Source of the DNA: an uncultured virus (IMG/VR IMGVR_UViG_3300031612_000005)
Lineage: Duplodnaviria; Heunggongvirae; Uroviricota; Caudoviricetes
DNA: 20,000 nt
Reading direction: 5' to 3' (one strand)
Virus record (IMG/VR): IMGVR_UViG_3300031612_000005
Shown here: piece after piece, positions 3,462-20,000 of the stretch
Layout: every line of letters starts with the position of its first letter
Position numbering within the stretch: the first letter of the stretch is position 1
Translations under genes and position numbers: made by a program
Notes under the pieces: generated by a model
Database searches by the model: none
What the model saw: only the letters and a program-made list of their open reading frames with translations
What the model was told of the DNA's origin: nothing

Positions 3462-3490
3462 TATCATTCCAATAATTAATTTATAAAACT

Positions 3491-3520: not shown

Positions 3521-3537
3521 TAGTTAATTTAAGATCA

Positions 3538-3720: not shown

Positions 3721-3726
3721 ATTACC

Positions 3727-4818: not shown

Positions 4819-4819
4819 T

Positions 4820-5083: not shown

Positions 5084-5095
5084 ACTAACCTCTAC

Positions 5096-5407
5096 TTAAT
5101 AATCATTGAAGTCGGGATAACCACCATCATCGGAATAATACGGTTGGTTGAAATTAGGATCATCTTCGCCCGTAACTTCTGTAATCTCTGGGATAAAATG
5201 CATTAATGTATTCTCAATACCCATCTTCAACGTTGCTGCACTACTCGCACATCCACTACAACTACCACTTAGTTGGGTACTCAATATACCAGTGTTCATA
5301 TCAAATCCTAGTACATTCACCTTACCACCATGTGCGGCAACATTAGGTGTCACATACTTTGTCATTACTTCTTCAATATTTGTTAAAATCTCTTCTTTAG
5401 TTCTCAT
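5096..5407 (-). CDS. Nfu/NifU C-terminal-type Fe-S cluster carrier
   Basis: P.VAAHGG.V, LSGSCSGCASSAATLKMGIE (CxxC) motif of the NifU/Nfu domain. Confidence 0.9.
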   Translation of the reverse strand: MRTKEEILTNIEEVMTKYVTPNVAAHGGKVNVLGFDMNTGILSTQLSGSCSGCASSAATLKMGIENTLMHFIPEITEVTGEDDPNFNQPYYSDDGGYPDFNDY

Positions 5408-5434
5408 TATACTCTCTCTCTCTTTTATTTCAAT

Positions 5435-5605
5435 TTATGCTGCTACCCATGCTGGAAGCATTGGTTGCGATGGTTCATCTGTTACTAATGTTAACTTAGG
5501 CTTGCCTACTACACGACCGTCATATAAGCGAGCATTCATCTCTGCCATTCCACGTATATAAAACATTTGCTCAGTACCATCACTGTAAATTACTGTATAT
5601 TTCAT
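5435..5605 (-). CDS. Hypothetical 56-aa protein
   Basis: Manual translation MKYTVIYSDGTEQMFYIRGMAEMNARLYDGRVVGKPKLTLVTDEPSQPMLPAWVAA. AGGA SD; directly downstream of an early promoter. Confidence 0.65.
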   Translation of the reverse strand: MKYTVIYSDGTEQMFYIRGMAEMNARLYDGRVVGKPKLTLVTDEPSQPMLPAWVAA

Positions 5606-5636
5606 CACATGCTTCCTGTCATTAATTTATATATTA

Positions 5637-5665
5637 ATTATACAGCAATACACATTACATGTCAA
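5637..5665 (-). promoter_or_regulatory. sigma70-like early promoter
   Basis: TTGACA-17bp-TATAAT on the minus strand. Confidence 0.7.
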
Positions 5666-5687
5666 GATTAATACATAATTAAATCAA

Positions 5688-5695
5688 TATAAATA
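5688..5695 (+). promoter_or_regulatory. T4-type late promoter TATAAATA(GTC)
   Basis: Exact octamer upstream of the plus-strand operon at 5738. Confidence 0.75.
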
Positions 5696-5703
5696 GTCTT
5701 ATA

Positions 5704-5747
5704 ATAGGAATTAATAAATGAATATAGGAATTAATAAATGAATATAG
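5704..5747 (+). repeat. 20-bp perfect tandem duplication of the RBS/start (ATAGGAATTAATAAATGAAT x2)
   Basis: 5704-5723 is identical to 5724-5743, followed by a partial third copy ATAG. Confidence 0.9.
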
Positions 5748-6307
5748 CGATTACTCAACGTGTAATTGACTTTCGTAACGGACCTTATGATAGTATCGAC
5801 CACGGCTTCTATGACATGTTCGCAGGTCATACATTATACCCAATACCAAATAACTTAAAACACTTTAATACTGACGCAATAATTAATTGTGACATCATCG
5901 TGTTCTCTGGCGGCAATAGCATGATGTCAGATAATTGGCAATATAATAACATACGATTGCAAATAGAAAAACAAACACTAGACATCGCTAGACTACACAA
6001 TAAACCCATACTAGGCATCAGTAGAGGAACACAATTCCTCACCATGCAACTGGGTGGTGACATTAAACCAAACGATAACCATACAGAAAATCATACTATA
6101 TGCTACAATAATCGTAGCATAAATGTGCATAGCAGACACGAGGAAGTATTAAATAGTATTCCAATCGGTGCAACTTGTCTTGCTACAGATACCGAAGGAT
6201 ACTGTGAAAGTTGGATAATGGATAATATAGTAACAGTACTATGGCATCCAGAACGAATGAAATCACACGGGCTTCCCAATGAAGCATATAACATATTAGG
6301 ATTATAA
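5738..6307 (+). CDS. Class I glutamine amidotransferase-like / gamma-glutamyl hydrolase (peptidase C26-like)
   Basis: ITQR N-terminus, FSGGN, KPILGISRG.Q, VHSRH, WHPE. The nucleophile position is Ser, not Cys. Confidence 0.85.
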   Translation: MNIAITQRVIDFRNGPYDSIDHGFYDMFAGHTLYPIPNNLKHFNTDAIINCDIIVFSGGNSMMSDNWQYNNIRLQIEKQTLDIARLHNKPILGISRGTQFLTMQLGGDIKPNDNHTENHTICYNNRSINVHSRHEEVLNSIPIGATCLATDTEGYCESWIMDNIVTVLWHPERMKSHGLPNEAYNILGL

Positions 6308-6322: not shown

Positions 6323-7261
6323 ATGAAAATAACAATATGCATATCTGGCGAGACCCGCGACTGGAACAACTACCCATCTAAAAATTTAGGATACTTTATT
6401 ACACGCTTAAAAGATTTTGGACATCAAGTGAAAGTAGTAGGACATACGTGGTCACATTGCGAAGTACCTTTACAACACCACGTGACGTTTGATAAACTTG
6501 TAATCGATGATCAGGCAATGATAGAAGAATGGGTCAAGGAAGATTGGATGCACCGACTTTCTATTAGTGATTTGGTTGCTGAAAGATTCGACTACCATGG
6601 ACGGGAAAGTCATGAGTTTAACACATTTGAATATGACAACCTATCTAAGGATGATCAATACGAACTCGCATATGGATGTCGTCATGCATATGGACAACAT
6701 ATTTCCGGATATAAATCTTTTCAATTGGCAGACAATGATGCTCACCTGTATATCAGATGGAGATGGGATATTATCTTTAATAAACTTCAAATAGGTGTAA
6801 TAGAAGATGAATACAAAGATAATATAGATTATTGGATGCACTATTTAAACGACCTATTCGAACAATGTGCAATGTTAACGGGATCATCAAGCGACGGAAT
6901 CGATGTGCATTTCGGCGGATCTACTATTGTTCATGCAGTGAATAGTGTATGCGTCGATGATACATTCTTTGCATTCACCTCACGCGCAAAAGAGCGTATA
7001 GATCTTTTAGATATATTTGATGCAATACATGAATACTCTAACGTAAACGACAATGTGCTTAACAGAGAAGTATATCATACATTGTGGACATATATAATGA
7101 CCCAATATCCTGAACTAGACGGATCATGTAGTCTACCAGCATGTGTACGTGCGACATATAGACCAGCACGTTTTCAGTTGAAAATAGATGAAGCAAATCG
7201 CAATCAAATGAAAATAGACGAATTACACGAAGAAGCATTGCTAATAGATGCAAAAATGTAA
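6323..7261 (+). CDS. Putative glycosyltransferase-like protein, paralog 1
   Basis: MKI.ICISG.TR, VVGHTW, Y.RWRWD, VDD.FF motifs shared with the downstream paralogs. Confidence 0.6.
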   Translation: MKITICISGETRDWNNYPSKNLGYFITRLKDFGHQVKVVGHTWSHCEVPLQHHVTFDKLVIDDQAMIEEWVKEDWMHRLSISDLVAERFDYHGRESHEFNTFEYDNLSKDDQYELAYGCRHAYGQHISGYKSFQLADNDAHLYIRWRWDIIFNKLQIGVIEDEYKDNIDYWMHYLNDLFEQCAMLTGSSSDGIDVHFGGSTIVHAVNSVCVDDTFFAFTSRAKERIDLLDIFDAIHEYSNVNDNVLNREVYHTLWTYIMTQYPELDGSCSLPACVRATYRPARFQLKIDEANRNQMKIDELHEEALLIDAKM

Positions 7262-8151
7262 TGAAAATATCCATCTGCGTATCAGGTCAGACTAGATCTT
7301 GGAATGATCATCCATCTAATAATTTACAGTATTTCATTTCCGTGTTAGAACAAATGGGACATACTGTAAATGTAGTAGGCCATACTTGGGATAATTGCGA
7401 TACACCAACACAAGATCTTGTACAATTTAAAAATATAGAATTAAATAACTCGTCGATGATTGATGATTGGATTAAACAAGATTGGCATAACCGTGTCATA
7501 ATCGATAATGATCTATGCGATTATTTTGAGTATGCACCACAAAATAATAATAATGATGATACAGATTTCCCACCACGAGATGATATGGCTTATGATCGTA
7601 TACCAGAATACATACGAAACGATATGCTGGAATGGTCACGCAATGAATACGCACAACACATTTCTGGATGGAAATCATTCCAACTAGCCGACAGTGACTC
7701 AGATATATATTTACGATGGCGATGGGATCTTATCTTTAATACACTCAATCGGTTCGTGGACGAAGACGATTACAAAAATAATATAAATTACTGGACTGAT
7801 CACCTAAATGATTTGTTTACATACGCATCTAATCACATGACAGCCGATTTCTATTTTTGCGGGTCTTCAGTTTTATTGACTGATGGAGAAGCAATTGTAG
7901 ACGATCAATACTTTATATTCACAAATAAAGCAAAGCAAAAAATAGATAATATCGATATATTTGAAGCCATAGATGCATATGCTGTAATTAATGACAATTC
8001 TATGACTCGAACAGCAGAACAACATTTATGGAGATTTATTAATATTGGATTAACCGAACTATCAGGACTTAACATGCTTCCACCTATTGCACGTACCACA
8101 TACAGTCCTCATAGAGGCAACCGACCACAACGTAAATACGCCAAGGAATAA
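7261..8151 (+). CDS. Putative glycosyltransferase-like protein, paralog 2
   Basis: Same motifs; TAATG stop-start overlap with paralog 1. Confidence 0.6.
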   Translation: MKISICVSGQTRSWNDHPSNNLQYFISVLEQMGHTVNVVGHTWDNCDTPTQDLVQFKNIELNNSSMIDDWIKQDWHNRVIIDNDLCDYFEYAPQNNNNDDTDFPPRDDMAYDRIPEYIRNDMLEWSRNEYAQHISGWKSFQLADSDSDIYLRWRWDLIFNTLNRFVDEDDYKNNINYWTDHLNDLFTYASNHMTADFYFCGSSVLLTDGEAIVDDQYFIFTNKAKQKIDNIDIFEAIDAYAVINDNSMTRTAEQHLWRFINIGLTELSGLNMLPPIARTTYSPHRGNRPQRKYAKE

Positions 8152-8155
8152 TTAA

Positions 8156-9049
8156 ATGAAAATCACAATATGCGTCTCAGGACAAACTAGATCGTGGGAT
8201 GGATACCCATCTAAAAATTTAGGGTATTTTGTTTCACAACTAGAACAACTAGGACATACAGTGGACGTGGTTGCACACACATGGTCATACCGCAATGAAC
8301 CTTTTCAATACCCTTCACAGGATATAGTTCAGTTTAAAAAACTAGTAGTAGATGACCAAGTCGTCATAGAAGATTGGGTAAAACAAGACTGGAATAAACG
8401 CATCGTAATCGATAATGAGATGACACAATTCTTTGATTATTCAATGGAAGATCAAGAAAAATCAACCAAAAAATTAGAATACAATAACTTATCAAAAGAT
8501 CAAATAAACGACATGCTAGCGTATACTCGCAGCCAAATAGGACAACATATTTCTGGTTGGAAATCATTCCAATTAGCAGATGATGACTCTGATATATATC
8601 TACGGTGGCGGTGGGATCTTATCTTTAGCACAGTACATGCTGGAGTAGTCGAAGAGGATTATAAGAATAACATAGATTATTGGATTGCATATTTAAATGA
8701 TTTGTTTGAATACGCAACCAAAATAAATACTGGATTCCATTTCTGCGGAGAACAGATACATCTAGAATCATCATCAGCAGTGATCGTCGATGATCAATAC
8801 TTTATATTCACAAATAATGCAAAACAAAAAATAGATAATATCAATATATTCAATGCAATCGATACATATGCACGTGATAACGAATACGATTGCAAACGTG
8901 GCGGATATCACTTCCTATGGACATATATAAATATAAACATGACTAGAGAAATAGGATCATCCCTATTCCCAAATATCGCTCGTGCTACTTACAATGACGT
9001 TAGATACCTTAGAGAAATAGAAACATCTAGATCACATTTCAGGAAGTAA
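8156..9049 (+). CDS. Putative glycosyltransferase-like protein, paralog 3
   Basis: SGQTR, HTW, GQHISGWKSFQLAD, DIYLRWRWDL. Confidence 0.6.
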   Translation: MKITICVSGQTRSWDGYPSKNLGYFVSQLEQLGHTVDVVAHTWSYRNEPFQYPSQDIVQFKKLVVDDQVVIEDWVKQDWNKRIVIDNEMTQFFDYSMEDQEKSTKKLEYNNLSKDQINDMLAYTRSQIGQHISGWKSFQLADDDSDIYLRWRWDLIFSTVHAGVVEEDYKNNIDYWIAYLNDLFEYATKINTGFHFCGEQIHLESSSAVIVDDQYFIFTNNAKQKIDNINIFNAIDTYARDNEYDCKRGGYHFLWTYININMTREIGSSLFPNIARATYNDVRYLREIETSRSHFRK

Positions 9050-9056
9050 AAATATT

Positions 9057-9938
9057 ATGAAAATAGCAATATGCATATCCGGACAGACGCGTGATTGGCA
9101 CGACTATCCATCAAAAAACTTAGCATACTTTATATCTACTTTAGAAGCAGCAGGGCATGAGGTAGATGTCGTTGGCCATACATGGAGTCATTGTATACCG
9201 CCATCCGAAGAACATGTGAAATTTAAAAAATTAATAATAGAAGATCAAGTAATAATAGATGATTGGGTTAAGAAAGATTGGATTAATCGCATAACACTTA
9301 ATGATGAACTATGTGATCTGTTTAATTATGATCCTAGCGATCAAGACGGGTTTGATATGACTACATTAGAATATGATAACCTTTCTGATGATCATATCAA
9401 TAAAATATTACAAAATTGTCGCGCTGGCTATGGACAACATGTATCTGGTTGGAAATCATTCCAACTAGCAGATGACGGATATGATATATATCTGCGATGG
9501 AGATGGGATCTTGTGTTCACTAAAGATAACTCCAACACCAGTGATGATGAATATAATCTTGTAATAGATTATTGGGCACCATATTTAATAGATATAATTA
9601 CATCTTTTCATTCAGTATCGTTTTCATCTGCTGGTAATCTTAATATTTTATTCGGCAATAATACTATAATTTACCATGCATATAAGGCATGCGTCGATGA
9701 TATATTCTTCGGCTTCTCATCATTGGCAAAAGAAAAAATAAATGCTGTCGATATATTTGACGCAATAGATTTATGCTTCCATCCGATGATCGGCGATAAT
9801 ATAAAATGTTTACAGATGAATAGAGCATTATATCATACTTTCTGGACATGGTGCATGACCGATCTTATTAAAATGGAAGGTGTATGCAAACTACCTGGAT
9901 GTGTTTCTATGACTTATTTGGAAAGTCGATTTCTATAA
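9057..9938 (+). CDS. Putative glycosyltransferase-like protein, paralog 4
   Basis: Same motifs; 6-nt convergent overlap with the 9933 gene. Confidence 0.6.
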   Translation: MKIAICISGQTRDWHDYPSKNLAYFISTLEAAGHEVDVVGHTWSHCIPPSEEHVKFKKLIIEDQVIIDDWVKKDWINRITLNDELCDLFNYDPSDQDGFDMTTLEYDNLSDDHINKILQNCRAGYGQHVSGWKSFQLADDGYDIYLRWRWDLVFTKDNSNTSDDEYNLVIDYWAPYLIDIITSFHSVSFSSAGNLNILFGNNTIIYHAYKACVDDIFFGFSSLAKEKINAVDIFDAIDLCFHPMIGDNIKCLQMNRALYHTFWTWCMTDLIKMEGVCKLPGCVSMTYLESRFL

Positions 9939-10437: not shown

Positions 10438-10752
10438 TTATCTATCATACTGTAACCTCAACATCATCTTAACCTCATCACTCGTTGGGGATACCTCCAA
10501 AAATTCTTTAAAACTTAAATCCTCACCATTAAGACACCAACTGTGAGATCTACTAGATCTACTATCAAGAACATCTGACTCATTGGTAATAGCAGGACCA
10601 TCTTCACGATGTATTTCACCTGCTTCATTATACCAAAAATATTCACCATCATCATGTAAATAACTACCATCATCTTGCAATTCCATATTGAACGAATCCT
10701 CATGATACGCAAATTCACTACTATAACAATTTGTATCGTAATAATCAACCAT
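10438..10752 (-). CDS. HREDGPA-motif protein, array copy 6
   Basis: WYNEAGEIHREDGPA...W.LNG...KMMLRLQY. Confidence 0.85.
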   Translation of the reverse strand: MVDYYDTNCYSSEFAYHEDSFNMELQDDGSYLHDDGEYFWYNEAGEIHREDGPAITNESDVLDSRSSRSHSWCLNGEDLSFKEFLEVSPTSDEVKMMLRLQYDR

Positions 10753-11062
10753 ACTGTAACCTCAACAACATCTTCTCTTCATCTGTCTTATTCAATGTAT
10801 TACACCATTCATTAAATGTATAATCAAAACCATTTAAATACCAATACAATCCACCCAACCTATATATAATAGACGGACCATCTTCTCTATGTACTTGTCC
10901 CTCCTCATTATACCAATACACATCGCGATCACTATGCAAGTATGAGCCATCACTTTGACGACATGCATCATACGCATTGATATGACGATCCCTATCACTC
11001 ATGGACATCTTCATATCACTCAGTGCTATCCTTTGCATTATCTCGCCATAACTCTCACGCAT
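10745..11062 (-). CDS. HREDGPA-motif protein, array copy 5
   Basis: WYNEEGQVHREDGPS...WYLNG...KMLLRLQYG. Confidence 0.85.
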   Translation of the reverse strand: MRESYGEIMQRIALSDMKMSMSDRDRHINAYDACRQSDGSYLHSDRDVYWYNEEGQVHREDGPSIIYRLGGLYWYLNGFDYTFNEWCNTLNKTDEEKMLLRLQYG

Positions 11063-11336
11063 ACTGCAACCTCAACATCATCTTTGTCTCTTCATCAACC
11101 GCAGTATCAATCAACCACTCTTCAAATGTACCATACTCAATACCATCTAAATACCATCCATCACCCTCTATATGATGCAATATAGCAGGACCAAATTCAC
11201 AATGTACCCGACCCAAATGATCGTAACGAAACACATCACCATCATCATGCAACCACGTACCATCACTCTGCAACGCAGCACTATAATTCTTTATATGATC
11301 GTACCTCGCATTAAAGTTATTAACAAAATCATCCAT
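11055..11336 (-). CDS. HREDGPA-motif protein, array copy 4
   Basis: GRVHCEFGPA...WYLDG...KMMLRLQYA. Confidence 0.85.
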   Translation of the reverse strand: MDDFVNNFNARYDHIKNYSAALQSDGTWLHDDGDVFRYDHLGRVHCEFGPAILHHIEGDGWYLDGIEYGTFEEWLIDTAVDEETKMMLRLQYA

Positions 11337-11658
11337 ACTGCAACCTATACATCATCTTACGTTCATCACTAATCTTAACATTAATCAACCACTCTTCAAA
11401 TGAACGACAATGACTATCATTCAAATACCACCATACTTCTACTACACCATATTTGTTCGGTGGCGATGTTATAGCAGGACCATCTTCTCTGTGTAGACCA
11501 CCAAGATCATTATACCAATATACATGTCCGTGATCATGCAACCATGAACCATCTTCTAATTGTGTCGCGTTCCAATCTTTTATATGATCTTCCAATCTGG
11601 TACTACTGCCCGTATATGGCTCCCACAAAGAACTAACTCTGATGCTGATGCTACCCAT
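11329..11658 (-). CDS. HREDGPA-motif protein, array copy 3
   Basis: WYNDLGGLHREDGPA...WYLND...KMMYRLQYG. Confidence 0.85.
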   Translation of the reverse strand: MGSISIRVSSLWEPYTGSSTRLEDHIKDWNATQLEDGSWLHDHGHVYWYNDLGGLHREDGPAITSPPNKYGVVEVWWYLNDSHCRSFEEWLINVKISDERKMMYRLQYG

Positions 11659-11941
11659 ACTGTAACCTCAACATCATCTTACGTTCATCACTACAATTAG
11701 TGAATCTACACCAATCGTCAAATGAATACTTATTATTACCCAAATGCCACTGTACATAACCACCATCCGTGTCACACCTTATCACAGCAGGTCCATCTTC
11801 TCTATGTATATTACCATCTTTATACCAATACACATCACCATCATTATGCAAATACGAACCATCACTCTGCAACTCAGCCTTATAATCTTCTATATGATGT
11901 GACAACTTAGTCCTCTCGCAATACTCATAACGATCACCCAT
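11651..11941 (-). CDS. HREDGPA-motif protein, array copy 2
   Basis: WYKDGNIHREDGPA...KMMLRLQYG. Confidence 0.85.
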   Translation of the reverse strand: MGDRYEYCERTKLSHHIEDYKAELQSDGSYLHNDGDVYWYKDGNIHREDGPAVIRCDTDGGYVQWHLGNNKYSFDDWCRFTNCSDERKMMLRLQYG

Positions 11942-12206
11942 ACTGTAACCTCAACATCATCTTATACTCTTCACTTATTCCTACAATTTTACACCACTGA
12001 TTAAATGGATAATTTACACCATTGAAAAACCACTCAACACTAGTGTCTACAAATATACTAGCAGGACCATCTTCACGATGCCATTGACCTTTTTCATTAA
12101 ACCAACTAATCGCACCAAATTCATCTACATAAGTTCCATCACTCTGCTTTATCGCACCATAACGCTCAATCAATTCAGCCCTCATACTTCCAATAAAGAC
12201 AGCCAT
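11934..12206 (-). CDS. HREDGPA-motif protein, array copy 1
   Basis: WFNEKGQWHREDGPA...KMMLRLQYG. Start reassigned to the ATG at 12206 after a GGGAGA SD (ORF track: 12227). Confidence 0.8.
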   Translation of the reverse strand: MAVFIGSMRAELIERYGAIKQSDGTYVDEFGAISWFNEKGQWHREDGPASIFVDTSVEWFFNGVNYPFNQWCKIVGISEEYKMMLRLQYG

Positions 12207-12282
12207 CACCAATCTCCCATAACACAAACCAACGAATTTTTTTTAACATTTAACACAATAAGACATCTTACTCAATAATACC

Positions 12283-12450
12283 TTATTCATCAGAATTTTC
12301 CAACCTCTTCAACCTTAACAAATACAATCCAAACAATAGAATCACTAGAATATAAACTACTCCAAATACCTCAGGACCAAATCCTACCGAAAATACATAT
12401 AGTAACACACCTATAAAACTGAACAACATACCAATCAATAATACCTTCAT
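12283..12450 (-). CDS. Small two-helix membrane protein
   Basis: Two hydrophobic stretches and a charged tail. Start at MKVLL fits the GGAAGAG SD after the early promoter (ORF track: 12468). Confidence 0.65.
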   Translation of the reverse strand: MKVLLIGMLFSFIGVLLYVFSVGFGPEVFGVVYILVILLFGLYLLRLKRLENSDE

Positions 12451-12482
12451 AATCTCTTCCCATTTCATTAACTCATATAACT

Positions 12483-12511
12483 AGTATACAGTAAGGACTC
12501 TCACTTGTCAA
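12483..12511 (-). promoter_or_regulatory. Early promoter driving the HREDGPA array
   Basis: TTGACA AGTGAGAGTCCTTACTG TATACT (17-bp spacer). Confidence 0.75.
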
Positions 12512-12857
12512 TAACTTAATTAAATTAATTAAATATAATACAAATACATCACCAAAATTTTTACCCTCTTTTATCATATTTCTTAACACGCATAACCATA
12601 ACAACTACATAAACAACTACTCTCTCTATAACATACTCACACTAAACTATAACTATACTCTCCCCTACAGAAACTATAACCTATACACACTAGGAACACT
12701 CTATACTACACTAGACTCTACTCTCGTAACACACACCCATACACGCTCTCATATCATACCACACAGCGTTAGGCAGTGTATCACTATCATTCTACCATCG
12801 TTGGGAGACTGTTGCGGCTTAATTATTAATTAATTGTATATACAAAATAAGGCTCAA

Positions 12858-12996
12858 AATTATCTAAACACCCTCTCGCCTTACCCGGACTAAAATATAA
12901 AGACTACCGATTTATAGCCCTATTGTAGCCCTATTATGAGTCTATACTGGCTGAATGATGCTTAAACGTTGATAATTATCTAAACACCCTCTCGCC
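12858..12996 (+). repeat. 23-bp perfect direct repeat AATTATCTAAACACCCTCTCGCC (12858-12880, 12974-12996)
   Basis: Two identical copies 116 bp apart, each followed by GACTAAAA(A)TATAAAG. Confidence 0.9.
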
Positions 12997-13086
12997 CTGT
13001 GTGACTAAAAATATAAAGGCTATGGTAAAACCCTACTATACAGCCCATTATGGTATCCTACTATAATCCTACAGTGAGGCGTAGAC

Positions 13087-13511
13087 ATTGGAGTTACACT
13101 AGGGGAGATATGACTTGTATAGTATGTTACACTACTCCTACAGTTGGTGTCCCATGTATAGTGCCTTACTGTGTATATTGTGTATTATATTGGAGTTCTA
13201 CTAGGGGAGATATGACTTATTAAGGTGTGATATACTATTGTATATATTGCTGGGGTTATGATATACTATTGTATATATTGTGGAGTTCTACTAGGGGAGA
13301 ATGTAGTTATAGTGTATATGATTGGAGTTCTACTAGGGGAGATATGACTTATAGTATGTATTACTATGTCCGTCTATTGTTGTGGGGTTATGGTAGGGGA
13401 GAATGTAGTTATTGTTGGAGTTGTACTAGGGGATGATTGACTTATTGTTATGTGTATCGTTACTTGGTATATGATTGGAGTTCTACTAGGGGAGATATGA
13501 CTTATTAAGGT
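13087..13511 (+). repeat. Seven irregularly spaced ~30-bp repeats (TTGGAGTTCTACTAGGGGAGATATGACTTAT and variants)
   Basis: Cores start at about 13089, 13191, 13281, 13323, 13383 (degenerate), 13416 and 13476. There is also a 22-bp duplication TGATATACTATTGTATATATTG at 13228 and 13259. Confidence 0.9.
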
Positions 13512-13543
13512 ATGATGCCTTGTTATATATTATTGTTATATAT

Positions 13544-13571
13544 AAAAAAGGTATGTGATTAGCATACCTTT
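13544..13571 (-). terminator. Rho-independent terminator
   Basis: AAAGGTATG / CATACCTTT stem with a 7-nt loop and a U-tract on the minus strand, just after the 13590 stop. Confidence 0.7.
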
Positions 13572-13589
13572 ATTGTGTTATTGTAATGG

Positions 13590-13862
13590 TTATGATACCT
13601 TAGAGATAAGGTTGGCAGATACTTTCCAGTTATTAGGACCAGAGTCTACTACGATGGTTTTGATGTTGACTTTAACCACTTTACCAGTGATAGTCCCATG
13701 CTTTGGTCCACCATTGAATTGAACTTTGTCACCGATGACAATGCTGTTAGTTGTTTGACGGGCTAAGTAAGTCCTACGTAGTTTAACTGATTCTACTACT
13801 TTGTTTAGTTCGTCTGAAGACATACGACCTATTTGATCTTGAACAGTGTTTAGCATAGCCAT
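13590..13862 (-). CDS. Hypothetical protein with SH3/KOW-like C-terminal barrel
   Basis: IGDKVQF...GKVVKVNIKTIVV pattern; own early promoter and GAGAG SD. Confidence 0.7.
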   Translation of the reverse strand: MAMLNTVQDQIGRMSSDELNKVVESVKLRRTYLARQTTNSIVIGDKVQFNGGPKHGTITGKVVKVNIKTIVVDSGPNNWKVSANLISKVS

Positions 13863-13889
13863 GATATTCTCTCTTTGATTTAATTAACT

Positions 13890-13918
13890 ATTATAACGTA
13901 AAGAGCCTTACTTGTCAA
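13890..13918 (-). promoter_or_regulatory. Early cassette promoter
   Basis: TTGACA AGTAAGGCTCTTTACGT TATAAT. Confidence 0.85.
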
Positions 13919-13936
13919 CTCTTTTCGGGAATTAAT

Positions 13937-14401
13937 TTAGTCTAGTGTATGGAATGCGTTACGAGCATCTTCCCATGAAGTTTGCTGTGCGTCTTTAACC
14001 TTTAATTCATACTTCTCAATAAGCGCGTCAATGCGTTGGTATTGTAGAGGAAGTGCAGACCCTTGTAGATTAGTTAGATCATCTACGATAGAGTACAGCA
14101 TGGTTAATTCATTTGTAATTGGAGCCATTCGTGACATAATATTTTCTCTTTGACAGTATGAAGACACTAGTGTTACACTAGTATCATTGTAAGGCATTGA
14201 ACAGAACACACCTTCATGTAGGTTATCCAACATGCCAGGTTTAGCAACTAGATCAATGTCATAGTTTTCTTTAATGATAGCCTTGATACGCTCAACGAAA
14301 CAAGTTGGGACAACTAGTCCTACTTCCATCTCAGAAAGGAAATCATCAATACCACGATACTCTAGATCGTTTAGGATATGTGCATCAGATACATTTGACA
14401 T
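13937..14401 (-). CDS. Hypothetical protein
   Basis: 154-aa ORF with its own promoter and SD. Confidence 0.7.
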   Translation of the reverse strand: MSNVSDAHILNDLEYRGIDDFLSEMEVGLVVPTCFVERIKAIIKENYDIDLVAKPGMLDNLHEGVFCSMPYNDTSVTLVSSYCQRENIMSRMAPITNELTMLYSIVDDLTNLQGSALPLQYQRIDALIEKYELKVKDAQQTSWEDARNAFHTLD

Positions 14402-14436
14402 AATAACTTCCCTTCTCTTAATTAACTTATATAACT

Positions 14437-14465
14437 ATTATACTATAAGGCGCCTTACTTGTCAA
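14437..14465 (-). promoter_or_regulatory. Early cassette promoter
   Basis: TTGACA AGTAAGGCGCCTTATAG TATAAT. Confidence 0.85.
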
Positions 14466-14479
14466 GGCTTTATATTAAT

Positions 14480-14815
14480 TTAAAGTGAACGAGAACCTAA
14501 GTATGAAGAGTTAACAGTCCTATACTTTTTGTTGCCGATTCTAAGTTCTTTGATGTAACCAGATGCGTATAGAGAGATTTCGTCGTTCATATCTACTTTA
14601 TCAGTACGTTGAACGATACGAGCAAGAAGGTCGAACTTAATGAATTTATCGGAAGTGAACAGTTGAGACAAAGTAGTCTTACCTTTGTATGATACTTCTC
14701 TAACCCAAGGGTCAATGCGTTCGCCTACCTCTGCAACGGAAAGAGTAGAGAAGTCCATCCCCATCTTCAAACCCCTTCCTAGTGAATCAGTTACTGCCAT
14801 TGCTGAATAAGACAT
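14480..14815 (-). CDS. Hypothetical protein
   Basis: 111-aa ORF with its own promoter and AAGGAAG SD. Confidence 0.7.
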   Translation of the reverse strand: MSYSAMAVTDSLGRGLKMGMDFSTLSVAEVGERIDPWVREVSYKGKTTLSQLFTSDKFIKFDLLARIVQRTDKVDMNDEISLYASGYIKELRIGNKKYRTVNSSYLGSRSL

Positions 14816-14849
14816 AATTACTTCCTTCTCTTGATTAACTTATATAACT

Positions 14850-14878
14850 ATTATAACGTAAGGAGCCTTGGTTGTCAA
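14850..14878 (-). promoter_or_regulatory. Early cassette promoter
   Basis: TTGACA ACCAAGGCTCCTTACGT TATAAT. Confidence 0.85.
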
Positions 14879-15008
14879 GTGTTATTGTAATTAAATTATT
14901 TAATGCGTGGTCAGGGAACGTAGTCCGTCAGTCTATTATAACATATATAAAAATGGATTTCACGTGTGTGACTATCGAGGTGTGTATAGTCACGGATATA
15001 TTTTAGAC

Positions 15009-15042
15009 AAAAAAAATGAACATCACAGTTAAATAATGTTCA
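15009..15042 (-). terminator. Rho-independent terminator
   Basis: Minus strand: TGAACATTA-loop-TGATGTTCA followed by T8. Confidence 0.65.
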
Positions 15043-15118
15043 CTAAGAGAATGCGAGATTATGAGACTCGCTATTATGAAATACTACAGTAAAGATCCGT
15101 ATGCATAGTTGTGTTAGT

Positions 15119-15319
15119 CTACGCGCAATGCATAGTTTTCTCTAATTCTTTTATTTCTGCCTGTATCTCGACAACTATTTTCCAATCGGCAGCAGCCTTC
15201 ATGTAAGCGTTATACTGTGCTGAATACCTACCACGATTGATCGTATTCATCCAATCTTCTTCGGACGCTGCCCATGTATCTTGTGCATGTACCAACTGTG
15301 CTTTAAGTTCGGTAATCAT
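15119..15319 (-). CDS. Hypothetical 66-aa helical protein
   Basis: ORF preceded by the conserved TTAATTAAAGAGAG leader. Confidence 0.65.
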   Translation of the reverse strand: MITELKAQLVHAQDTWAASEEDWMNTINRGRYSAQYNAYMKAAADWKIVVEIQAEIKELEKTMHCA

Positions 15320-15340
15320 ATCGGTCTCTCTTTAATTAAT

Positions 15341-15868
15341 TTATTTTAATTTATATTTGGTGCGAACGTGAAGACATTGTATGTTATAACCACCAGCGTA
15401 AAATGTTTCAAATGAGAACACCTTATCGTTATTCAATTTCCATGAACCTTCCATGTAACCGTCACGCCCTTCAATGATACGTATCTTTTCAACTGTATCA
15501 ACATCGAATGTAACTTTCTTAAAGACAGCAACTTCGATCTTTAATAGTTTTGCCTCAGCATCCTTCTGGGCTTTAAGTAACCAATCATCTTGACCGTAGT
15601 AAGCGATTAGTTGTTTGTCACCTTTACTAATACCAGCATTTTCATATACACTATTACGTGCATCGGAACGCATAAAATACCTGCCTGCAATTGGCTTCAT
15701 CTTATTATATTTTTCATCGATAGCAGATTGAGTCTCATCTGACTGCATCCATGTTCTAGTGTTAAGAAGATACTTGACACGATCATCTACCCATTTAGCC
15801 ATTAACGGGCGAACAGATTCTTTGATCTCTTCAGCAATCATCTTAACTTGTTGGTTTCTAGTAGTCAT
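15341..15868 (-). CDS. Conserved phage protein with C-terminal AGGYNIQCLH motif
   Basis: 175-aa ORF; terminal AGGYNIQCLHVR motif recalled from phage hypothetical proteins; own promoter. Confidence 0.7.
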   Translation of the reverse strand: MTTRNQQVKMIAEEIKESVRPLMAKWVDDRVKYLLNTRTWMQSDETQSAIDEKYNKMKPIAGRYFMRSDARNSVYENAGISKGDKQLIAYYGQDDWLLKAQKDAEAKLLKIEVAVFKKVTFDVDTVEKIRIIEGRDGYMEGSWKLNNDKVFSFETFYAGGYNIQCLHVRTKYKLK

Positions 15869-15899
15869 ATCGTTCTCTCTTTAATTAACTTATATAACT

Positions 15900-15928
15900 A
15901 TTATAAGGTAAGACGTCTTACTTGTCAA
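15900..15928 (-). promoter_or_regulatory. Early cassette promoter
   Basis: TTGACA AGTAAGACGTCTTACCT TATAAT. Confidence 0.85.
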
Positions 15929-15931
15929 CCT

Positions 15932-16282
15932 TTATTTTGAAACTTCTTGGAATCCGTAGTTAGCAACAACTGATTGCTTTCCATTTTCATCTTCAATAAT
16001 ATCTCCAACACTTATAGAACTCATTCTAGAAAGTCTTTCAATATCTGTCTCTGGTCCCATATTGCCTACGTGGAATACACCTTCTAATGTATACGCATCG
16101 ATGTTTGAAACATGTGTGTAGTAACCTAAATCAAATGCTTCCTTAGCAACAGCGCCAGTGTCATTTTTTCTAAGACCCATGTCTAGTTTCATTGATTGCT
16201 TGTGAACAGAATCGTGTCCTTCTGCATTGATAAGATCGTATTGAGCGTTTGACAGTTGGATTTGGTAGATTGCGTATTTCAT
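15932..16282 (-). CDS. YodL-like domain protein
   Basis: YAIYQI at the N-terminus and SSISVGDII...YGF at the C-terminus. Confidence 0.55.
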   Translation of the reverse strand: MKYAIYQIQLSNAQYDLINAEGHDSVHKQSMKLDMGLRKNDTGAVAKEAFDLGYYTHVSNIDAYTLEGVFHVGNMGPETDIERLSRMSSISVGDIIEDENGKQSVVANYGFQEVSK

Positions 16283-16316
16283 CTGTTGTTCCTTGCGTTG
16301 ATTAACTTACTTAACT

Positions 16317-16345
16317 ATTATAACGTAAGGCACATTGCTTGTCAA
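16317..16345 (-). promoter_or_regulatory. Early cassette promoter
   Basis: TTGACA AGCAATGTGCCTTACGT TATAAT. Confidence 0.85.
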
Positions 16346-16359
16346 GTGTTTATTGTAAA

Positions 16360-17232
16360 TTAATTATCTTCACTGAACAGATCACTGGGTAGTTCAGCCT
16401 TCTTCTTCGCTCTATCACGCTTCCAACCCTCACGCATCTTAACACGCTTCGCTAACTCTACAGGATCAGGTGACACCACAGTGGGATCATCTTTACTCTC
16501 TACATTAGCCAACGTTGGTAGGAAGGTATCGTATGCGTTGGTGTTCTGTTCAAAGCCTACGAACTCTCTACCGTAACGCAATGCTGTCCTAGCGGTAGTG
16601 AAACCACCACAGAACGGGTCCATCACTATGTCGCCTCTATTGGAACTATACATGATGAACTTTTCAATGAAGTCTTCACTCAACTGATTCTTATTCTTTA
16701 TTTGTCCCGGCTTATGACTACGAGGCATCTTCTGCACAGTTAGTCTATCATGGTAACTATCTTTACTATCAGCATAGTATGCGTTTGTATTGAATGTACG
16801 TTGTTGTTTCTTTGCTGGTGGTTTAGTCCAGAACAATACATGGTAATGACTACTGACATACTTCTTCGTAGTACTCACACCGAAAGAGTATTCCGCTATG
16901 ATATGGTTCACTTCGGTAAGATCAGTAGAATGTAATGCGTTGAGTATATGGTGTAGGTTAGTGTAACCGCTAACGATATACATTGAACCACCAGGACGTA
17001 ATACTCTAGCGCACTGAGTAATCCAATCTAATGAGAACTGTCCGTATGTCTCTAGTGGTACTTCCACATAGCCAGGAACTACATTGGATTCGTCACGGTT
17101 ATAGTGAGCATCTAGTTTGTCGCCCTCTATGCCGTATGGTGGATCTGTGAAGATAAGATCGACTGAGTTAGAGTCAACGTTGTCTCTCATACCTTCTATA
17201 CAGTTTTGGTTATATACGTTATACACGAGCAT
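16360..17232 (-). CDS. N6-adenine/N4-cytosine DNA methyltransferase (beta-class order)
   Basis: VDLIFTDPPY (motif IV) precedes DIVMDPFCGGFTT (motif I); RVLRPGGS. Confidence 0.92.
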   Translation of the reverse strand: MLVYNVYNQNCIEGMRDNVDSNSVDLIFTDPPYGIEGDKLDAHYNRDESNVVPGYVEVPLETYGQFSLDWITQCARVLRPGGSMYIVSGYTNLHHILNALHSTDLTEVNHIIAEYSFGVSTTKKYVSSHYHVLFWTKPPAKKQQRTFNTNAYYADSKDSYHDRLTVQKMPRSHKPGQIKNKNQLSEDFIEKFIMYSSNRGDIVMDPFCGGFTTARTALRYGREFVGFEQNTNAYDTFLPTLANVESKDDPTVVSPDPVELAKRVKMREGWKRDRAKKKAELPSDLFSEDN

Positions 17233-17788
17233 CCTCTATGATCTTTCGTTGTGCTTGGGCTTTGACTGCTTTATAGTCTAGGTTCATTGTATTGTTGTTA
17301 ACCACATTGGTAGGCTTCATTAAGAACGTTAGTGCCTCAAACGGTATGTGACTTTCTATGCCGTCTGGTACAGCGACTAGGAATGGTTTGACATCATCCC
17401 AACTGATGATAGCGATAGCGTCTTGTTGACCAATCATATAGAAGTCAGCGGGATGATCTATGTTAGTACCTTTAGATGAGCCTAGACTATTCTTTAGTTT
17501 AACTTTGACCATCTTCTTCTCGCGTTTCAATGGGGTGAACATACCATTGGTTACATACTTGAACTCTAGATCAACGTTGAGTTTGTTATCACGATGATCA
17601 CGTCCTACTTCGTCTACCCATGATAGTCTACCATTAGAGTATACGTCAATACATTGTTCAATGATGTCGCTCTTATCGAAGCGATCTTTGGGTGAGTTCA
17701 ACTGTGTACCTAACGCGGCTACTAGGTTGGTGTAGTCAACTAGATTGATCGCATTACGCAGGTCGTCTGCATACGTTGATGTGTTCAT
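17219..17788 (-). CDS. Putative type II restriction endonuclease (PD-(D/E)xK)
   Basis: GRD...DLEFK motif; overlaps the MTase start by 14 nt. Confidence 0.5.
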   Translation of the reverse strand: MNTSTYADDLRNAINLVDYTNLVAALGTQLNSPKDRFDKSDIIEQCIDVYSNGRLSWVDEVGRDHRDNKLNVDLEFKYVTNGMFTPLKREKKMVKVKLKNSLGSSKGTNIDHPADFYMIGQQDAIAIISWDDVKPFLVAVPDGIESHIPFEALTFLMKPTNVVNNNTMNLDYKAVKAQAQRKIIEDARV

Positions 17789-17819
17789 GGTACTTCCTTT
17801 AAAATTAACTTATGTAACT

Positions 17820-17848
17820 ATTATATACTAAGGATCATTACCTGTCAA
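17820..17848 (-). promoter_or_regulatory. Early cassette promoter
   Basis: TTGACA GGTAATGATCCTTAGTA TATAAT. Confidence 0.8.
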
Positions 17849-17996
17849 GTGATTTGATACAATTAGTTACTATGATAGTCATACGTACAGTTACTGTTGA
17901 GTCTTACTGTACGGCTGTCTGCGGTGTGTATATACTATATATGTATAATGATGTAGTGTCAATAGTAAATTAATGGGATTAAATGCACTTAAATAG

Positions 17997-18025
17997 TTGA
18001 CAAGTGAGGCTCCTTGTTATATAAT
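17997..18025 (+). promoter_or_regulatory. Early cassette promoter
   Basis: TTGACA AGTGAGGCTCCTTGTTA TATAAT. Confidence 0.85.
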
Positions 18026-18062
18026 GGTTACAAGATAAAGAGTTAACCAAAAGGAACGCATT

Positions 18063-18161
18063 ATGTCTAGTGACTTGTTAGTTTATGTTTTAGTATCAGT
18101 ACTCCTTACATACTCATTGTGGATAGTACCATTGCGTATCGTACGTGCTATCAAGAGTTAA
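18063..18161 (+). CDS. 32-aa single-pass membrane peptide
   Basis: Manual translation MSSDLLVYVLVSVLLTYSLWIVPLRIVRAIKS; AAGGA SD; own promoter. Confidence 0.6.
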   Translation: MSSDLLVYVLVSVLLTYSLWIVPLRIVRAIKS

Positions 18162-18185
18162 TTACAATTAATTCACTATAAGGGG

Positions 18186-18214
18186 TTGACAAGTGAGGCT
18201 CCTTACGTTATAAT
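18186..18214 (+). promoter_or_regulatory. Early cassette promoter
   Basis: TTGACA AGTGAGGCTCCTTACGT TATAAT. Confidence 0.85.
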
Positions 18215-18254
18215 AGTTATAGAAGTTAAGTTAATCAAAGCAAGGAATTATATC

Positions 18255-18638
18255 ATGGCGTATGTATCTAAAGAAGACAAAGCGAGTTTGGCACCAGCGA
18301 TCAAAGCAGTGTTGAAGAAGTACAAGATGAAAGGTTCTATCTCTGTTCAGAACTATTCTACCTTAGTCGTTAAAGTATCAGGTGGTGCATTAGACTTCAG
18401 TCAGTACTTAGAGAATGCACAATGGGCACGTGAGTATCTTGAAGTGAACGAGTATCACATAGACAACCATTATGCTGATAACGTTACCATTAAAGACTTT
18501 CTAAACGAACTACATGCTGCTATGAAAGGCCCAGACTTCTTCGACGAGTCTGATGCAATGACTGACTATTTCCACCGTTCACACTACGTTAGTATGAACA
18601 TTGGTTCATTCAACAAGCCTTACTCATTCACTGGATAA
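18255..18638 (+). CDS. Conserved phage early protein (D.MTDYF motif; LPD29-like)
   Basis: Start reassigned to the ATG at 18255 (MAYVSKE) after the AAGGA SD; C-terminal ESDAMTDYFH..HY motif. Confidence 0.7.
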   Translation: MAYVSKEDKASLAPAIKAVLKKYKMKGSISVQNYSTLVVKVSGGALDFSQYLENAQWAREYLEVNEYHIDNHYADNVTIKDFLNELHAAMKGPDFFDESDAMTDYFHRSHYVSMNIGSFNKPYSFTG

Positions 18639-18661
18639 ACCTTAACACTACGGAGTATATT

Positions 18662-18877
18662 ATGTCTGAATTAATTTCTGATCTCATTGAGACTACCATC
18701 GACAACTACAACACAACAGTATCTGGAGACAATAAGTCTGGTGTATTCCTAGAAGATCTGTTCTTAGATTACTTTAATAATTTCCTTACAGTTGATAGAT
18801 TTGCAGAGTATTATGGACTAGACGCGAAGATAGCCAATGAAGTGATCTATCTTGGGAGAATGATTAACAATGCTTGA
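18662..18877 (+). CDS. Small phage hypothetical protein (DYFNNFLT..FAEYYG)
   Basis: GGAG SD, 71 aa, 8-nt overlap with the next gene. Confidence 0.7.
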   Translation: MSELISDLIETTIDNYNTTVSGDNKSGVFLEDLFLDYFNNFLTVDRFAEYYGLDAKIANEVIYLGRMINNA

Positions 18878-19712
18878 TACACCATTAAGAGTTGCAATAG
18901 TACTCACAGGAGAAACAAGATCTTGGGAGAATGATGCTAGTACTGCAACTCCGCCCATGTGCATTCCAGACGAATATACTAAATTTAATGATGAATGTAG
19001 TCGAGCAATGGATATTGATTACTATGGTATTACATGGGATCACTGTAAACTCTCAAAAAAATTAGATATGTTTAAGTCAGTCAAGAAACTTAATTTCGAA
19101 ACAGATTATAAAAATGAAACAATGACAGGTGTACTAAATAAAAATAGACAACGACTGATCATTGACACCATGAGCACAGATGATGTAGTGATGTATAATT
19201 ACTATGCCCAAGCGTACATGTGGTTTGAAGGAATAAAATTAGCAAAATCGTTAGGAGAGTACGATTGGATTATTAAGTTTAGGTGGGACATGGCTCCCAG
19301 ACTGGAGATGATTAGTAGTATATATTCGTTAAGCAATTGTGATAATGAGATGCCTACACTAGCAACATGTAATCCAGAAATTCACTACTCGTCACAGTTT
19401 CCGTTAGGAGACTTCAAGTGGAGCGATTATATATTTGCAGTTAATCGCAAATTGCAAGACTATATATACACCACACCAACTGAACAAATAATATCGAATA
19501 ATATAGAAACAAGTTTTTGCAATACGCCTAGCAATGACCTAAGCATTGGGTTCTTTAATTATGAGTTTCTGCCTACAGAGATTCTAAGAATAATACAGGC
19601 ATTTAGAAATTCAGATAGACAACTAGTAATGGACAAGAGTATATACGACACGTGGCATAGTATAACAGATGATATGAAAAATAAAAGAAGTGTAGGTAGA
19701 CCTCCCACTTAA
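18870..19712 (+). CDS. Putative glycosyltransferase-like protein, distant homolog of the 6323-9938 family
   Basis: VAIVLTGETRSW, GITWD, YDWIIKFRWD, SDYIFA motifs. Confidence 0.6.
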   Translation: MLDTPLRVAIVLTGETRSWENDASTATPPMCIPDEYTKFNDECSRAMDIDYYGITWDHCKLSKKLDMFKSVKKLNFETDYKNETMTGVLNKNRQRLIIDTMSTDDVVMYNYYAQAYMWFEGIKLAKSLGEYDWIIKFRWDMAPRLEMISSIYSLSNCDNEMPTLATCNPEIHYSSQFPLGDFKWSDYIFAVNRKLQDYIYTTPTEQIISNNIETSFCNTPSNDLSIGFFNYEFLPTEILRIIQAFRNSDRQLVMDKSIYDTWHSITDDMKNKRSVGRPPT

Positions 19713-19715
19713 TAC

Positions 19716-19744
19716 TTGACAAGTAAGGATCCTTACGGTATAAT
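19716..19744 (+). promoter_or_regulatory. Early cassette promoter
   Basis: TTGACA AGTAAGGATCCTTACGG TATAAT with a perfect 14-bp palindrome. Confidence 0.85.
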
Positions 19745-19776
19745 AGTTACATAAGTTAATTAAAGAGAGCAAGACA

Positions 19777-20000
19777 ATGATTGCATTAGCACAAGCATTT
19801 GAAGCAGCATTAGCGTCACCAGAAAATCGTTACGTTACAGTAGACGGCTATCATGATATGTCTGATGAACAACATCACGATGTTAACTGGAACTTCGTAG
19901 ACGCTGACTGTGTTATGGCATTACCAGCCATAACCGATTGGGGTGTATACTATGATGAGTTTGATGCACTTGCTACTGCATACGAGAATCAGTTTGCATA
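19777..20000 (+). CDS. Hypothetical acidic protein, reaches window end
   Basis: Manual translation MIALAQAFEAALASPEN...VNWNFVDAD...; GAGAG SD after the promoter. Confidence 0.7.
   Translation, partial: MIALAQAFEAALASPENRYVTVDGYHDMSDEQHHDVNWNFVDADCVMALPAITDWGVYYDEFDALATAYENQFA

What the first reader, a model, noticed from the sequence alone, without database searches (positions are those of the whole stretch)
12520..13545. 1-kb non-coding region with an abrupt C-to-G strand-skew inversion: candidate replication origin or joined genome termini
Seen: 12601-12660 has 18 C and 0 G, while 13381-13440 has 25 G and 1 C, with the switch near 12.9-13.1 kb. By eye, minus-strand genes to the left are far more skewed than minus-strand genes to the right, so gene orientation does not explain it. 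The region is bounded by an outward-facing promoter (12483) and a terminator (13544). Known: a C-to-G skew switch marks bidirectional origins. Inference: a fixed origin or end-initiated replication, unlike T4's mostly recombination-dependent mode.
Basis: partly seen in the sequence, partly recalled or inferred. Interest (0 to 1): 0.7.

Follow-up and report, generated by a model that had tools for sequence, protein, structure and literature searches.

The report
Jumbo phage genome-end skew flip
In an uncultured marine giant phage, the sharp switch from C-rich to G-rich DNA most likely marks one end of the packaged chromosome and a place where DNA copying repeatedly starts, and cultured relatives with known ends show a similar switch at their ends.

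Summary
It is gene-independent: silent-site bias ramps up over about 100 kb on the left and reverses on the right. Contig depth rises 1.6-2.0-fold across 13.1-13.6 kb in 3 of 3 DNA runs, as expected at the left edge of a collapsed long direct terminal repeat (DTR). In 4 of 4 cultured relatives with mapped DTRs, the top or second genome-wide switch (2-kb windows) lies within 500 bp of the left edge; T4 shows no comparable step. A second conserved element about 8.8 kb to the right is the candidate other edge. Best reading: a fixed genome end whose 3' strand primes outward recombination-dependent forks, with the boxes as end-processing sites. An iteron origin beside the end is the main rival. Long DTRs are known in this clade; I found no report of this skew signature. 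No read-level terminus was seen.

The parts
10438..12468 (-). Seven small minus-strand genes (six HREDGP-motif paralogues and one 61-aa ORF) carrying the steepest part of the left silent-site skew ramp (coding-strand GC3 skew +0.44 to +0.90)
12483..12511 (-). Sigma-70-type promoter cassette firing leftwards, away from the site
   Evidence: kept in strains L154, L159, L161
12520..12790 (.). C-rich non-coding arm; its sequence varies between strains but its composition is kept
12646..12667 (-). Single inverted copy of the box motif
   Evidence: I1, I2, I5; present in 6 of 6 contigs that reach this far, 3 of them divergent strains
12820..12840 (.). Conserved AT-only core (candidate unwinding or bending element; role inferred)
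   Evidence: found in 7 of 10 phage contigs, the other 3 start inside or right of it
12858..12906 (+). Direct repeat copy 1 (23-nt exact box plus downstream 15-nt box)
   Evidence: D6, D15
12974..13022 (+). Direct repeat copy 2, 116 bp after copy 1
   Evidence: two copies in 7 of 10 phage contigs, one in L158, L152 and L155 start to the right
13072..13073 (.). C-to-G / amino-to-keto switch point
13088..13505 (+). Array of seven G-rich boxes (19-nt cores at 13090, 13192, 13282, 13324, 13384, 13417, 13477; spacing 33-102), not found elsewhere in about 249 kb; candidate terminase or initiator binding sites
   Evidence: 4-7 boxes in strains
13080..13600 (.). Interval holding the depth step = inferred left genome terminus (DTR left edge); by analogy with PA5oct probably just after the last box
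   Evidence: depth; PA5oct array ends at its terminus
13547..13571 (.). Intrinsic terminator hairpin called on both strands; insulates the site from leftward early transcripts
13590..20000 (.). Inferred DTR body: small early-type genes behind ten consensus-type sigma-70 promoters, depth raised; continues beyond the window to a second conserved non-coding element at window-equivalent about 21.86-22.04 kb (G001:74,513-74,698)

Best explanation
The site is the left edge of a long direct terminal repeat (probably about 8.3-8.8 kb) of a T4-like jumbo phage, and replication forks start at this edge again and again. Shown: the switch, the conserved box anatomy, the depth step, and the same switch at mapped DTR edges of relatives. 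Inferred: (a) the terminase cuts at or just after the box array, probably recognised by the small subunit; (b) after infection the resected 3' end of the left terminus invades the internal copy of the repeat (UvsX-like protein, SSB, gp41/gp61 homologues) and drives a fork leftwards into unique DNA, making the bottom strand leading and G/T-rich in a ramp that fades over about 100 kb; (c) the right terminus does the mirror image, giving the G/T-rich top-strand ramp from about +12 to +24 kb; (d) duplication of the repeat by strand displacement from staggered nicks (model recalled from T7/T5 work) may add the short G-rich stretch at the edge.
For: Depth: length-weighted contig depth right/left of the site is 1.98, 1.61 and 1.60 in 3 of 3 DNA runs laid; an X10 contig 11938-13229 at baseline depth puts the step beyond about 13.15 kb. 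Clade: TerL is 54% identical to PA5oct's; PA5oct, CBB, fEgEco12 and XacN1 have DTRs of 39,080, 22,456, 20,993 and 65,875 bp. Whole-genome test: the raw switch (2-kb windows) ranks 1 at the left edge in PA5oct (+289), CBB (-241) and fEgEco12 (-450) and 2 in XacN1 (+463; its rank 1 is 328 bp from the other edge). The codon- and strand-corrected index ranks both edges 1 and 2 in CBB and XacN1, the left edge 1 in PA5oct and fEgEco12, and this site 1 here (0.49, next 0.32); T4's maximum is 0.16. PA5oct's densest non-coding repeat array is G-rich, follows its C-to-G switch and ends at its terminus. Ramps: Spearman 0.49 (77 minus genes, left arm) and 0.62 (34 minus genes, +8 to +55 kb), with the index near zero from 0 to +8 kb. 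A second conserved element at +8.8 kb is kept at 86% in 2 divergent strains with different flanks and is the top A-tract window in 249 kb, as a DTR edge is in XacN1 and (tied) PA5oct (post hoc). RecA-family gene in G002; SbcC/D, SSB, helicases and primase.
Against: Only contigs were laid, so there are no read starts and no exact end; a co-occurring strain sharing only the right side could mimic the step, and the loose-end table was cut. Two of three ratios are 1.6, at low depth. Depth sags inside the proposed repeat (X10 70.9 at 17.8-19.8 kb; X17 6.6 at 19.0-19.6 kb), and the right edge was not covered by the lay. With 500-nt windows the left edge ranks only 1, 4 and 5 in PA5oct, CBB and fEgEco12 and is outside the top 6 in XacN1. 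The right edge is unmarked by the corrected index in PA5oct and 7 kb off in fEgEco12. A dense edge array is clear in only 1 of 4 relatives. CBB's raw switch coincides with a gene-strand change, and CBB and fEgEco12 are kin. There is no sharp raw switch at +8.8 kb. Skew cannot by itself tell end-priming from an initiator-bound origin. The DNA polymerase B gene and about a third of the genome are not in the records held.
Confidence: 0.55

Rival explanations
1. An initiator-bound (iteron) bidirectional origin that sits beside the DTR edge, possibly paired with a second origin at +8.8 kb, like SPP1 oriL/oriR: the boxes are iterons and the AT core is the unwinding element.
For: Direct repeats, an inverted box and an AT-only core centred on the switch. 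SPP1's two origins are direct repeats plus an AT-rich element about 13 kb apart (passages). The left ramp runs about 100 kb.
Against: Both DTR edges carry the top two steps in CBB and XacN1, where no dense array is seen; one origin does not predict this. No initiator family appeared among the 185 proteins scanned against PHROGs (35 window ORFs plus 150 of 170 aa or more), but the genome is incomplete and small ORFs outside the window were not scanned. The right ramp is short and lopsided for simple theta replication.
Confidence: 0.25
2. Fixed packaging start (pac-like) at the array with a headful-determined, blurred right end rather than an exact DTR.
For: Depth decays rightwards in X10 (95, 100, 92, 71) and X17 (9.4, 6.6). 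SPP1 pac has TerS-bound regions flanking the cut.
Against: A step near 2x needs a series of about one headful (inference). Relatives have defined DTRs, confirmed by restriction mapping in fEgEco12. Cassette polymorphism between strains in 18.2-19.7 kb can explain the sag.
Confidence: 0.1
3. Origin only, no terminus: the depth step comes from a strain mixture, cassette mini-circles or replication-linked copy number.
For: Strains differ on both sides of the site. Joints between promoter cassettes appear in contigs, and PeSL mini-circles are known (abstract).
Against: The step has the same place and direction in 3 of 3 DNA runs from three studies. It starts left of the first cassette (13,918). 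A bidirectional origin would give a peak, not a one-sided step. It would leave the match to DTR edges in 4 of 4 relatives unexplained.
Confidence: 0.07
4. The skew is a by-product of repeat expansion, of G-rich paralogous proteins, or of a structured RNA or mini-CRISPR array.
For: The boxes are G-rich and their number varies; the left genes are D/E/W/G-rich; the arms fold into a long loose hairpin.
Against: The skew persists after masking boxes and at NNY sites. Plus- and minus-strand genes on the left shift in opposite directions (-0.22 and +0.60). Fold energy -93.0 lies within local shuffles (mean -82.3, sd 5.6, minimum -99.8, n=40). No Rfam hit, tRNA or tmRNA. Spacing is irregular and the spacers repeat each other.
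Confidence: 0.03

Closest known systems
Long DTRs of PA5oct/RaK2-like jumbo myophages (PA5oct 39,080 bp; CBB 22,456; fEgEco12 20,993; XacN1 65,875)
   Same: Same clade by TerL and virion genes; about 2x depth over an early-gene block; edge in non-coding DNA; C-to-G switch at the edge; in PA5oct a G-rich irregular 6-copy array ending at the terminus.
   Different: Probably shorter (about 8-9 kb); switch much stronger (0.92 against 0.35-0.48); no nucleotide similarity of the site to any of 50,697 phage records beyond chance-level hits, best E 0.1; the passages read in these papers do not link skew or origins to the ends.
T4 recombination-dependent replication
   Same: 3' end invasion by a UvsX-type protein primes a fork (passages); homologues of UvsX, gp32, gp41, gp61, UvsW and gp46/47 are present.
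   Different: T4 ends are permuted (passage), so no fixed-position skew builds up (corrected maximum step 0.16); here the ends appear fixed. The UvsY search rang nowhere, controls included; gp59 was not tested.
SPP1 oriL/oriR and pac (pacL-pacC-pacR)
   Same: Direct repeats plus AT-rich element; paired sites; protein-bound regions flanking a cut.
   Different: SPP1 is a 44-kb headful siphovirus with a known initiator gp38; no such protein was identified here.
T5 and SPO1 long terminal repeats
   Same: Raw switches lie near edges: T5 +9,775 (edge 10,219) and -1,425; SPO1 -681 and +13,919 (edge 13,185).
   Different: The corrected signal is weak in T5 (0.15-0.16) and in SPO1 peaks inside the repeat (+6,726), so generality beyond this clade is not shown.
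GC-skew origins of huge phages (Al-Shayeb et al. 2020, PMC7162821)
   Same: Skew read as bidirectional replication in about 30% of genomes (passages).
   Different: There the pattern is origin-to-terminus and genome-wide; 'terminal repeat' does not occur in the main text (supplements not read). Here it is a decaying, edge-anchored ramp.

Membership tests
Long direct terminal repeat edge | About 2x sequencing depth on one side of a fixed point | tested here: met
   1.98, 1.61, 1.60 in 3 of 3 DNA runs, contig-level only
Long direct terminal repeat edge | Reads start at one exact base | not testable with these tools
   All runs laid were contigs; no start table
Long direct terminal repeat edge | Second edge where depth returns to 1x | tested here: inconclusive
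   The lay ended at 20,000; depth sags from 17.8-19 kb; candidate element at +8.8 kb from sequence only
Long direct terminal repeat edge | Terminase of a clade with mapped long DTRs | tested here: met
   Best TerL hits are the PA5oct group at 54%, RaK2-like phages at 44%; DTRs
Long direct terminal repeat edge | Early genes behind strong host-type promoters inside the repeat | tested here: met
   10 of the 43 consensus-type promoters listed for 249 kb lie in +0.8 to +6.6 kb; expression timing not tested
Bidirectional replication origin (bacterial type) | C-to-G polarity independent of gene strand | tested here: met
Bidirectional replication origin (bacterial type) | Global minimum of cumulative GC skew | tested here: not met
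   Raw minimum about 54.6 kb to the right in both records; keto minimum here in G001 only; genome incomplete
Iteron origin | Direct repeats plus AT-rich element, conserved | tested here: met
Iteron origin | Cognate initiator protein, autonomous replication | tested here: inconclusive
   None named; small ORFs outside the window not scanned; function not testable
T4-type recombination-dependent replication | UvsX, gp32, gp41/gp61, gp46/47, UvsW genes | tested here: met
T4-type recombination-dependent replication | UvsY and gp59 mediators | tested here: inconclusive
   UvsY 0 of 5 records with no positive control ringing; gp59 not searched
CRISPR array | Regular repeat-spacer period with unique spacers | tested here: not met
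   Spacing 33-102 nt, spacers repeat each other
Structured non-coding RNA | Known family or folding beyond composition | tested here: not met
   Rfam 0 hits at E<=1; energy within local shuffles, DNA parameters

The most novel reading that the evidence does not exclude
T4-like jumbo phages with long DTRs have turned T4's position-free recombination-dependent replication into a fixed-site system: the two terminase-made ends are the origins, each firing one outward fork, and silent-site skew records this well enough that termini and repeat length of uncultured jumbo phages can be read from an assembly alone.
Probability: 0.4. Interest if true: 0.75.

Novelty: new variant of a known kind. Interest (0 to 1): 0.55.

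Why it matters
How jumbo phages start replication, and how repeats of 10-60 kb are rebuilt at every packaging round, is open (own knowledge; the CBB paper says the physical nature of its genome is unknown). A strand-bias footprint anchored at DTR edges in 4 of 4 mapped relatives ties the two processes to one place and is testable in cultured phages such as PA5oct or fEgEco12. It would also locate genome ends in metagenomic assemblies without reads, and it warns that a skew switch in a huge phage need not be a bacterial-style origin.

Tried and rejected
blastn of the site against 50,697 phage records: chance-level hits only. tRNA/tmRNA and Rfam: none. Neighbour-gene searches did not lead to homologous sites: the 90-aa gene gave 6 loci, 1 the same phage and 5 in other contexts; the HREDGP gene gave only the same phage; the methylase gave 48 loci, of which 41 were analysed (the 7 weak hits L077-L083 left out): 1 is the same phage and 40 show a maximum switch of 0.39 or less and no such array, so the methylase is mobile. 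Two of 12 metagenome motif hits (L151, L160) are chance matches in GC-rich bacterial genes. Eight... of the hairpin-pattern hits: 4 of 11 belong to this phage group (L167, L168, L170, L174), 7 are unrelated. The records behind L167, L168 and L174 do not contain the left site. Contig ends within the site (5 of 10 phage contigs, at about 12,785, 12,832, 13,030, 13,161 and 13,454) were not used as evidence, because repeats and strain branching break assemblies, and a terminus at 12.8 kb conflicts with depth (expected 61 against observed 43.5). The RNA run X21 had no cover of the array; this is uninformative. The long hairpin fold is explained by composition. The short plus-strand ORFs over the array (13050-13223, 13227-13436) are read as spurious products of the repeats (inference). 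A canonical G-quadruplex and a ribosome-binding-site reading of the box were considered from the sequence and dropped (G-runs 33-102 nt apart; only 2 nt between the G-run and ATG). UvsY and polymerase B family searches were uninformative.

Full report
Observation. The counts are exact and the switch lies at 13,072-13,073. It exceeds all 500 block shuffles (0.91 against a maximum of 0.57). No own genome is held, but two linear virus records carry the same phage: G001 (192,024 bp) and G002 (148,882 bp), overlapping by 91 kb at 99.97% and spanning about 249 kb. In both, the site is the strongest C-to-G switch (0.92 and 0.91; next 0.50 and 0.47).

The bias is mutational and strand-linked. Minus genes left of the site have third-position G:C 177:32 and those right 184:243; NNY T:C is 215:20 against 166:148. 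Plus genes within 5 kb on the left shift the other way (-0.22 against +0.60). Coding-strand GC3 skew of minus genes rises from about 0 at -100 kb to 0.2 at -20 kb and 0.60 next to the site, turns to -0.13 to -0.20 on the right and returns to about 0 beyond +20 kb (Spearman 0.49, n=77, and 0.62, n=34). Genes were called with a simple longest-ORF script, which admits some false ORFs. By the usual rule that the leading strand is G/T-rich (established knowledge, recalled), forks leave this place, mostly leftwards.

Anatomy. Between a leftward promoter (12511-12483) and a terminator (13547-13571) lie a C-rich arm, one inverted box (12646-12667), an AT-only core (12820-12840), two repeats 116 bp apart (12858, 12974) and seven G-rich boxes (13090-13495). 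The boxes occur nowhere else in 249 kb and form its densest non-coding repeat window. A metagenome scan for the box gave 12 loci: 2 bacterial chance hits, 3 copies of this strain and 7 divergent strains with 4-7 boxes, some cut by contig ends; flanking genes differ while the core is kept.

Depth. In 3 of 3 DNA runs laid (X10, X13, X17; contigs only; none flagged as a possible source), depth rises across the site: 43.5 to 86.0, 6.8 to 11.0 and 5.7 to 9.1. Bins up to 13,077 are at baseline, and an X13 contig starting at 13,482 has the high value, so the step lies at 13.1-13.6 kb. Against a flat plateau: X10 falls to 70.9 at 17.8-19.8 kb and X17 to 6.6 at 19.0-19.6 kb. Strains exchange a cassette there, which may explain it. 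The fourth run (RNA, X21) holds only diverged pieces.

Identity. Portal, capsid, sheath, late sigma factor, SbcC/D, SSB, helicases, primase and TerL are of the T4-like jumbo type. TerL is 54% identical to PA5oct's and 44% to RaK2-like phages. A RecA-family gene is in G002. Papers (passages seen by term search; no supplements read): PA5oct DTR 39,080 bp with early genes (10.1101/679506); CBB 22,456 bp from doubled depth and PFGE (PMC5259590); XacN1 65,875 bp (PMC5852040); fEgEco12 20,993 bp by PhageTerm and restriction mapping (PMC13070987).

Comparative test. On the full unit genomes the raw switch with 2-kb windows ranks first within 500 bp of the DTR left edge in PA5oct, CBB and fEgEco12, and second in XacN1, whose first is at its other edge. 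A synonymous keto index corrected for codon family and strand (3-kb windows) puts the two edges first and second in CBB (+22,295, +1,045) and XacN1 (+65,419, +419), the left edge first in PA5oct (+383) and fEgEco12 (-499), and this site first here (+324). Weaker results: with 500-nt windows the left edge ranks 1, 4, 5 and outside the top 6; right edges of PA5oct and fEgEco12 are not marked by the corrected index. PA5oct repeats the local layout: C-rich DNA, a switch, then six irregular G-rich repeats ending at the terminus. CBB, fEgEco12 and XacN1 have no such top-ranked array. Controls: T4's largest corrected step is 0.16; T5 and SPO1 show raw switches near edges but weak or misplaced corrected signals.

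Second edge. After seeing two earlier AI notes on paired switches in other marine jumbo phages, I looked to the right and found a non-coding element at +8.8 kb with two hairpins and A-tracts. It is kept at 86% in L167 and L168 with different flanks and is the top A-tract window in 249 kb (32 against 17), as a DTR edge is in XacN1 (36 against 9) and, tied, in PA5oct (a post-hoc statistic, not met in CBB, 880 bp off in fEgEco12). The corrected index is near zero between the two sites and decays from +0.15 at +12 kb to 0 at +24 kb. Depth there was not measured.

Mechanism. Fixed ends plus T4-type strand invasion (PMC6337909, passages) predict a leftward fork from the left end and a rightward fork from the right end, hence C-rich DNA left of the left edge and G-rich DNA right of the right edge, fading with distance. 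That is what is seen here, in CBB and in XacN1. Repeat duplication at packaging is stated for T3/T7 in PMC5923468 (passages); the staggered-nick model is recalled. The boxes fit either terminase sites or iterons (SPP1, PMC6316719, passages). My odds: site is a terminus about 0.8; forks start here about 0.85; end-primed rather than initiator-bound about 2 to 1.

Novelty. Long DTRs in this clade are known, and skew has been read as bidirectional replication in huge phages (PMC7162821, passages). Searches for a link between skew and DTR edges (listings only, except PMC12484599, passages, and the two papers just cited) showed none. The library lacks most subscription papers, and supplements of PMC7162821 and the PA5oct skew figure (legend only seen) may bear on this. 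Verdict: a real feature, most likely a terminus that also starts replication; new variant of a known kind; interest 0.55.

Noticed in passing
G001:74,513-74,698 (L013:14,513-14,698; window-equivalent about 21.86-22.04 kb): Conserved non-coding element with two short GC hairpins and A-tracts, closing the early-gene block; candidate right DTR edge.
   Followed up: partly
window 12483-19744: A roughly 60-bp promoter cassette (consensus -35/-10 plus shared spacer and leader) recurs about ten times; strains swap the genes between copies, and contig joints link copies (15882->14418, 16319->15916, 16326->14452). Resembles PeSL cassettes of RB49/phi1 (PMC2839356, abstract); the joints may be assembly artefacts.
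   Followed up: partly
window 10438-12227: Six tandem paralogues of about 100 aa with an HREDGP-type motif and a C-terminal MMxRLQY motif; no Pfam or PHROG hit; Atlas look-alikes are unnamed viral proteins, with DUF6745 as a weak lead in 17-20% of members of two clusters. In L155 one paralogue sits inside a duplicated box-plus-terminator unit.
   Followed up: partly
window 6323-9938 and 18870-19712: Four tandem paralogues of about 300 aa plus a fifth distant copy (N-terminal 'I-x-GqtR' pattern), no Pfam hit.
   Followed up: no
window 16360-17788: DNA methyltransferase (N6/N4) with a 189-aa partner; the pair occurs at different genomic places in related jumbo phages, like a mobile restriction-modification-type module.
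   Followed up: partly
window 4820-5083: This 87-aa gene is absent from G001 and skipped by an X10 contig: strain polymorphism.
   Followed up: no
window 2-6307: Auxiliary genes: carbamoyltransferase, AMP-binding enzyme, tryptophan halogenase, endonuclease V, DNA ligase, NifU-like protein, glutamine amidotransferase.
   Followed up: no
L020/L021, L022, L027, L028 (PA5oct and XacN1 termini): At or within 100 nt of the termini a small reverse flip (G-rich 200-400 nt before, C-rich 200-300 nt after) is nested in the larger switch.
   Followed up: no
SPO1 about 6.7 kb, inside its terminal repeat (L185): Strongest corrected skew step in SPO1 (0.28) lies mid-repeat, a candidate origin position.
   Followed up: no
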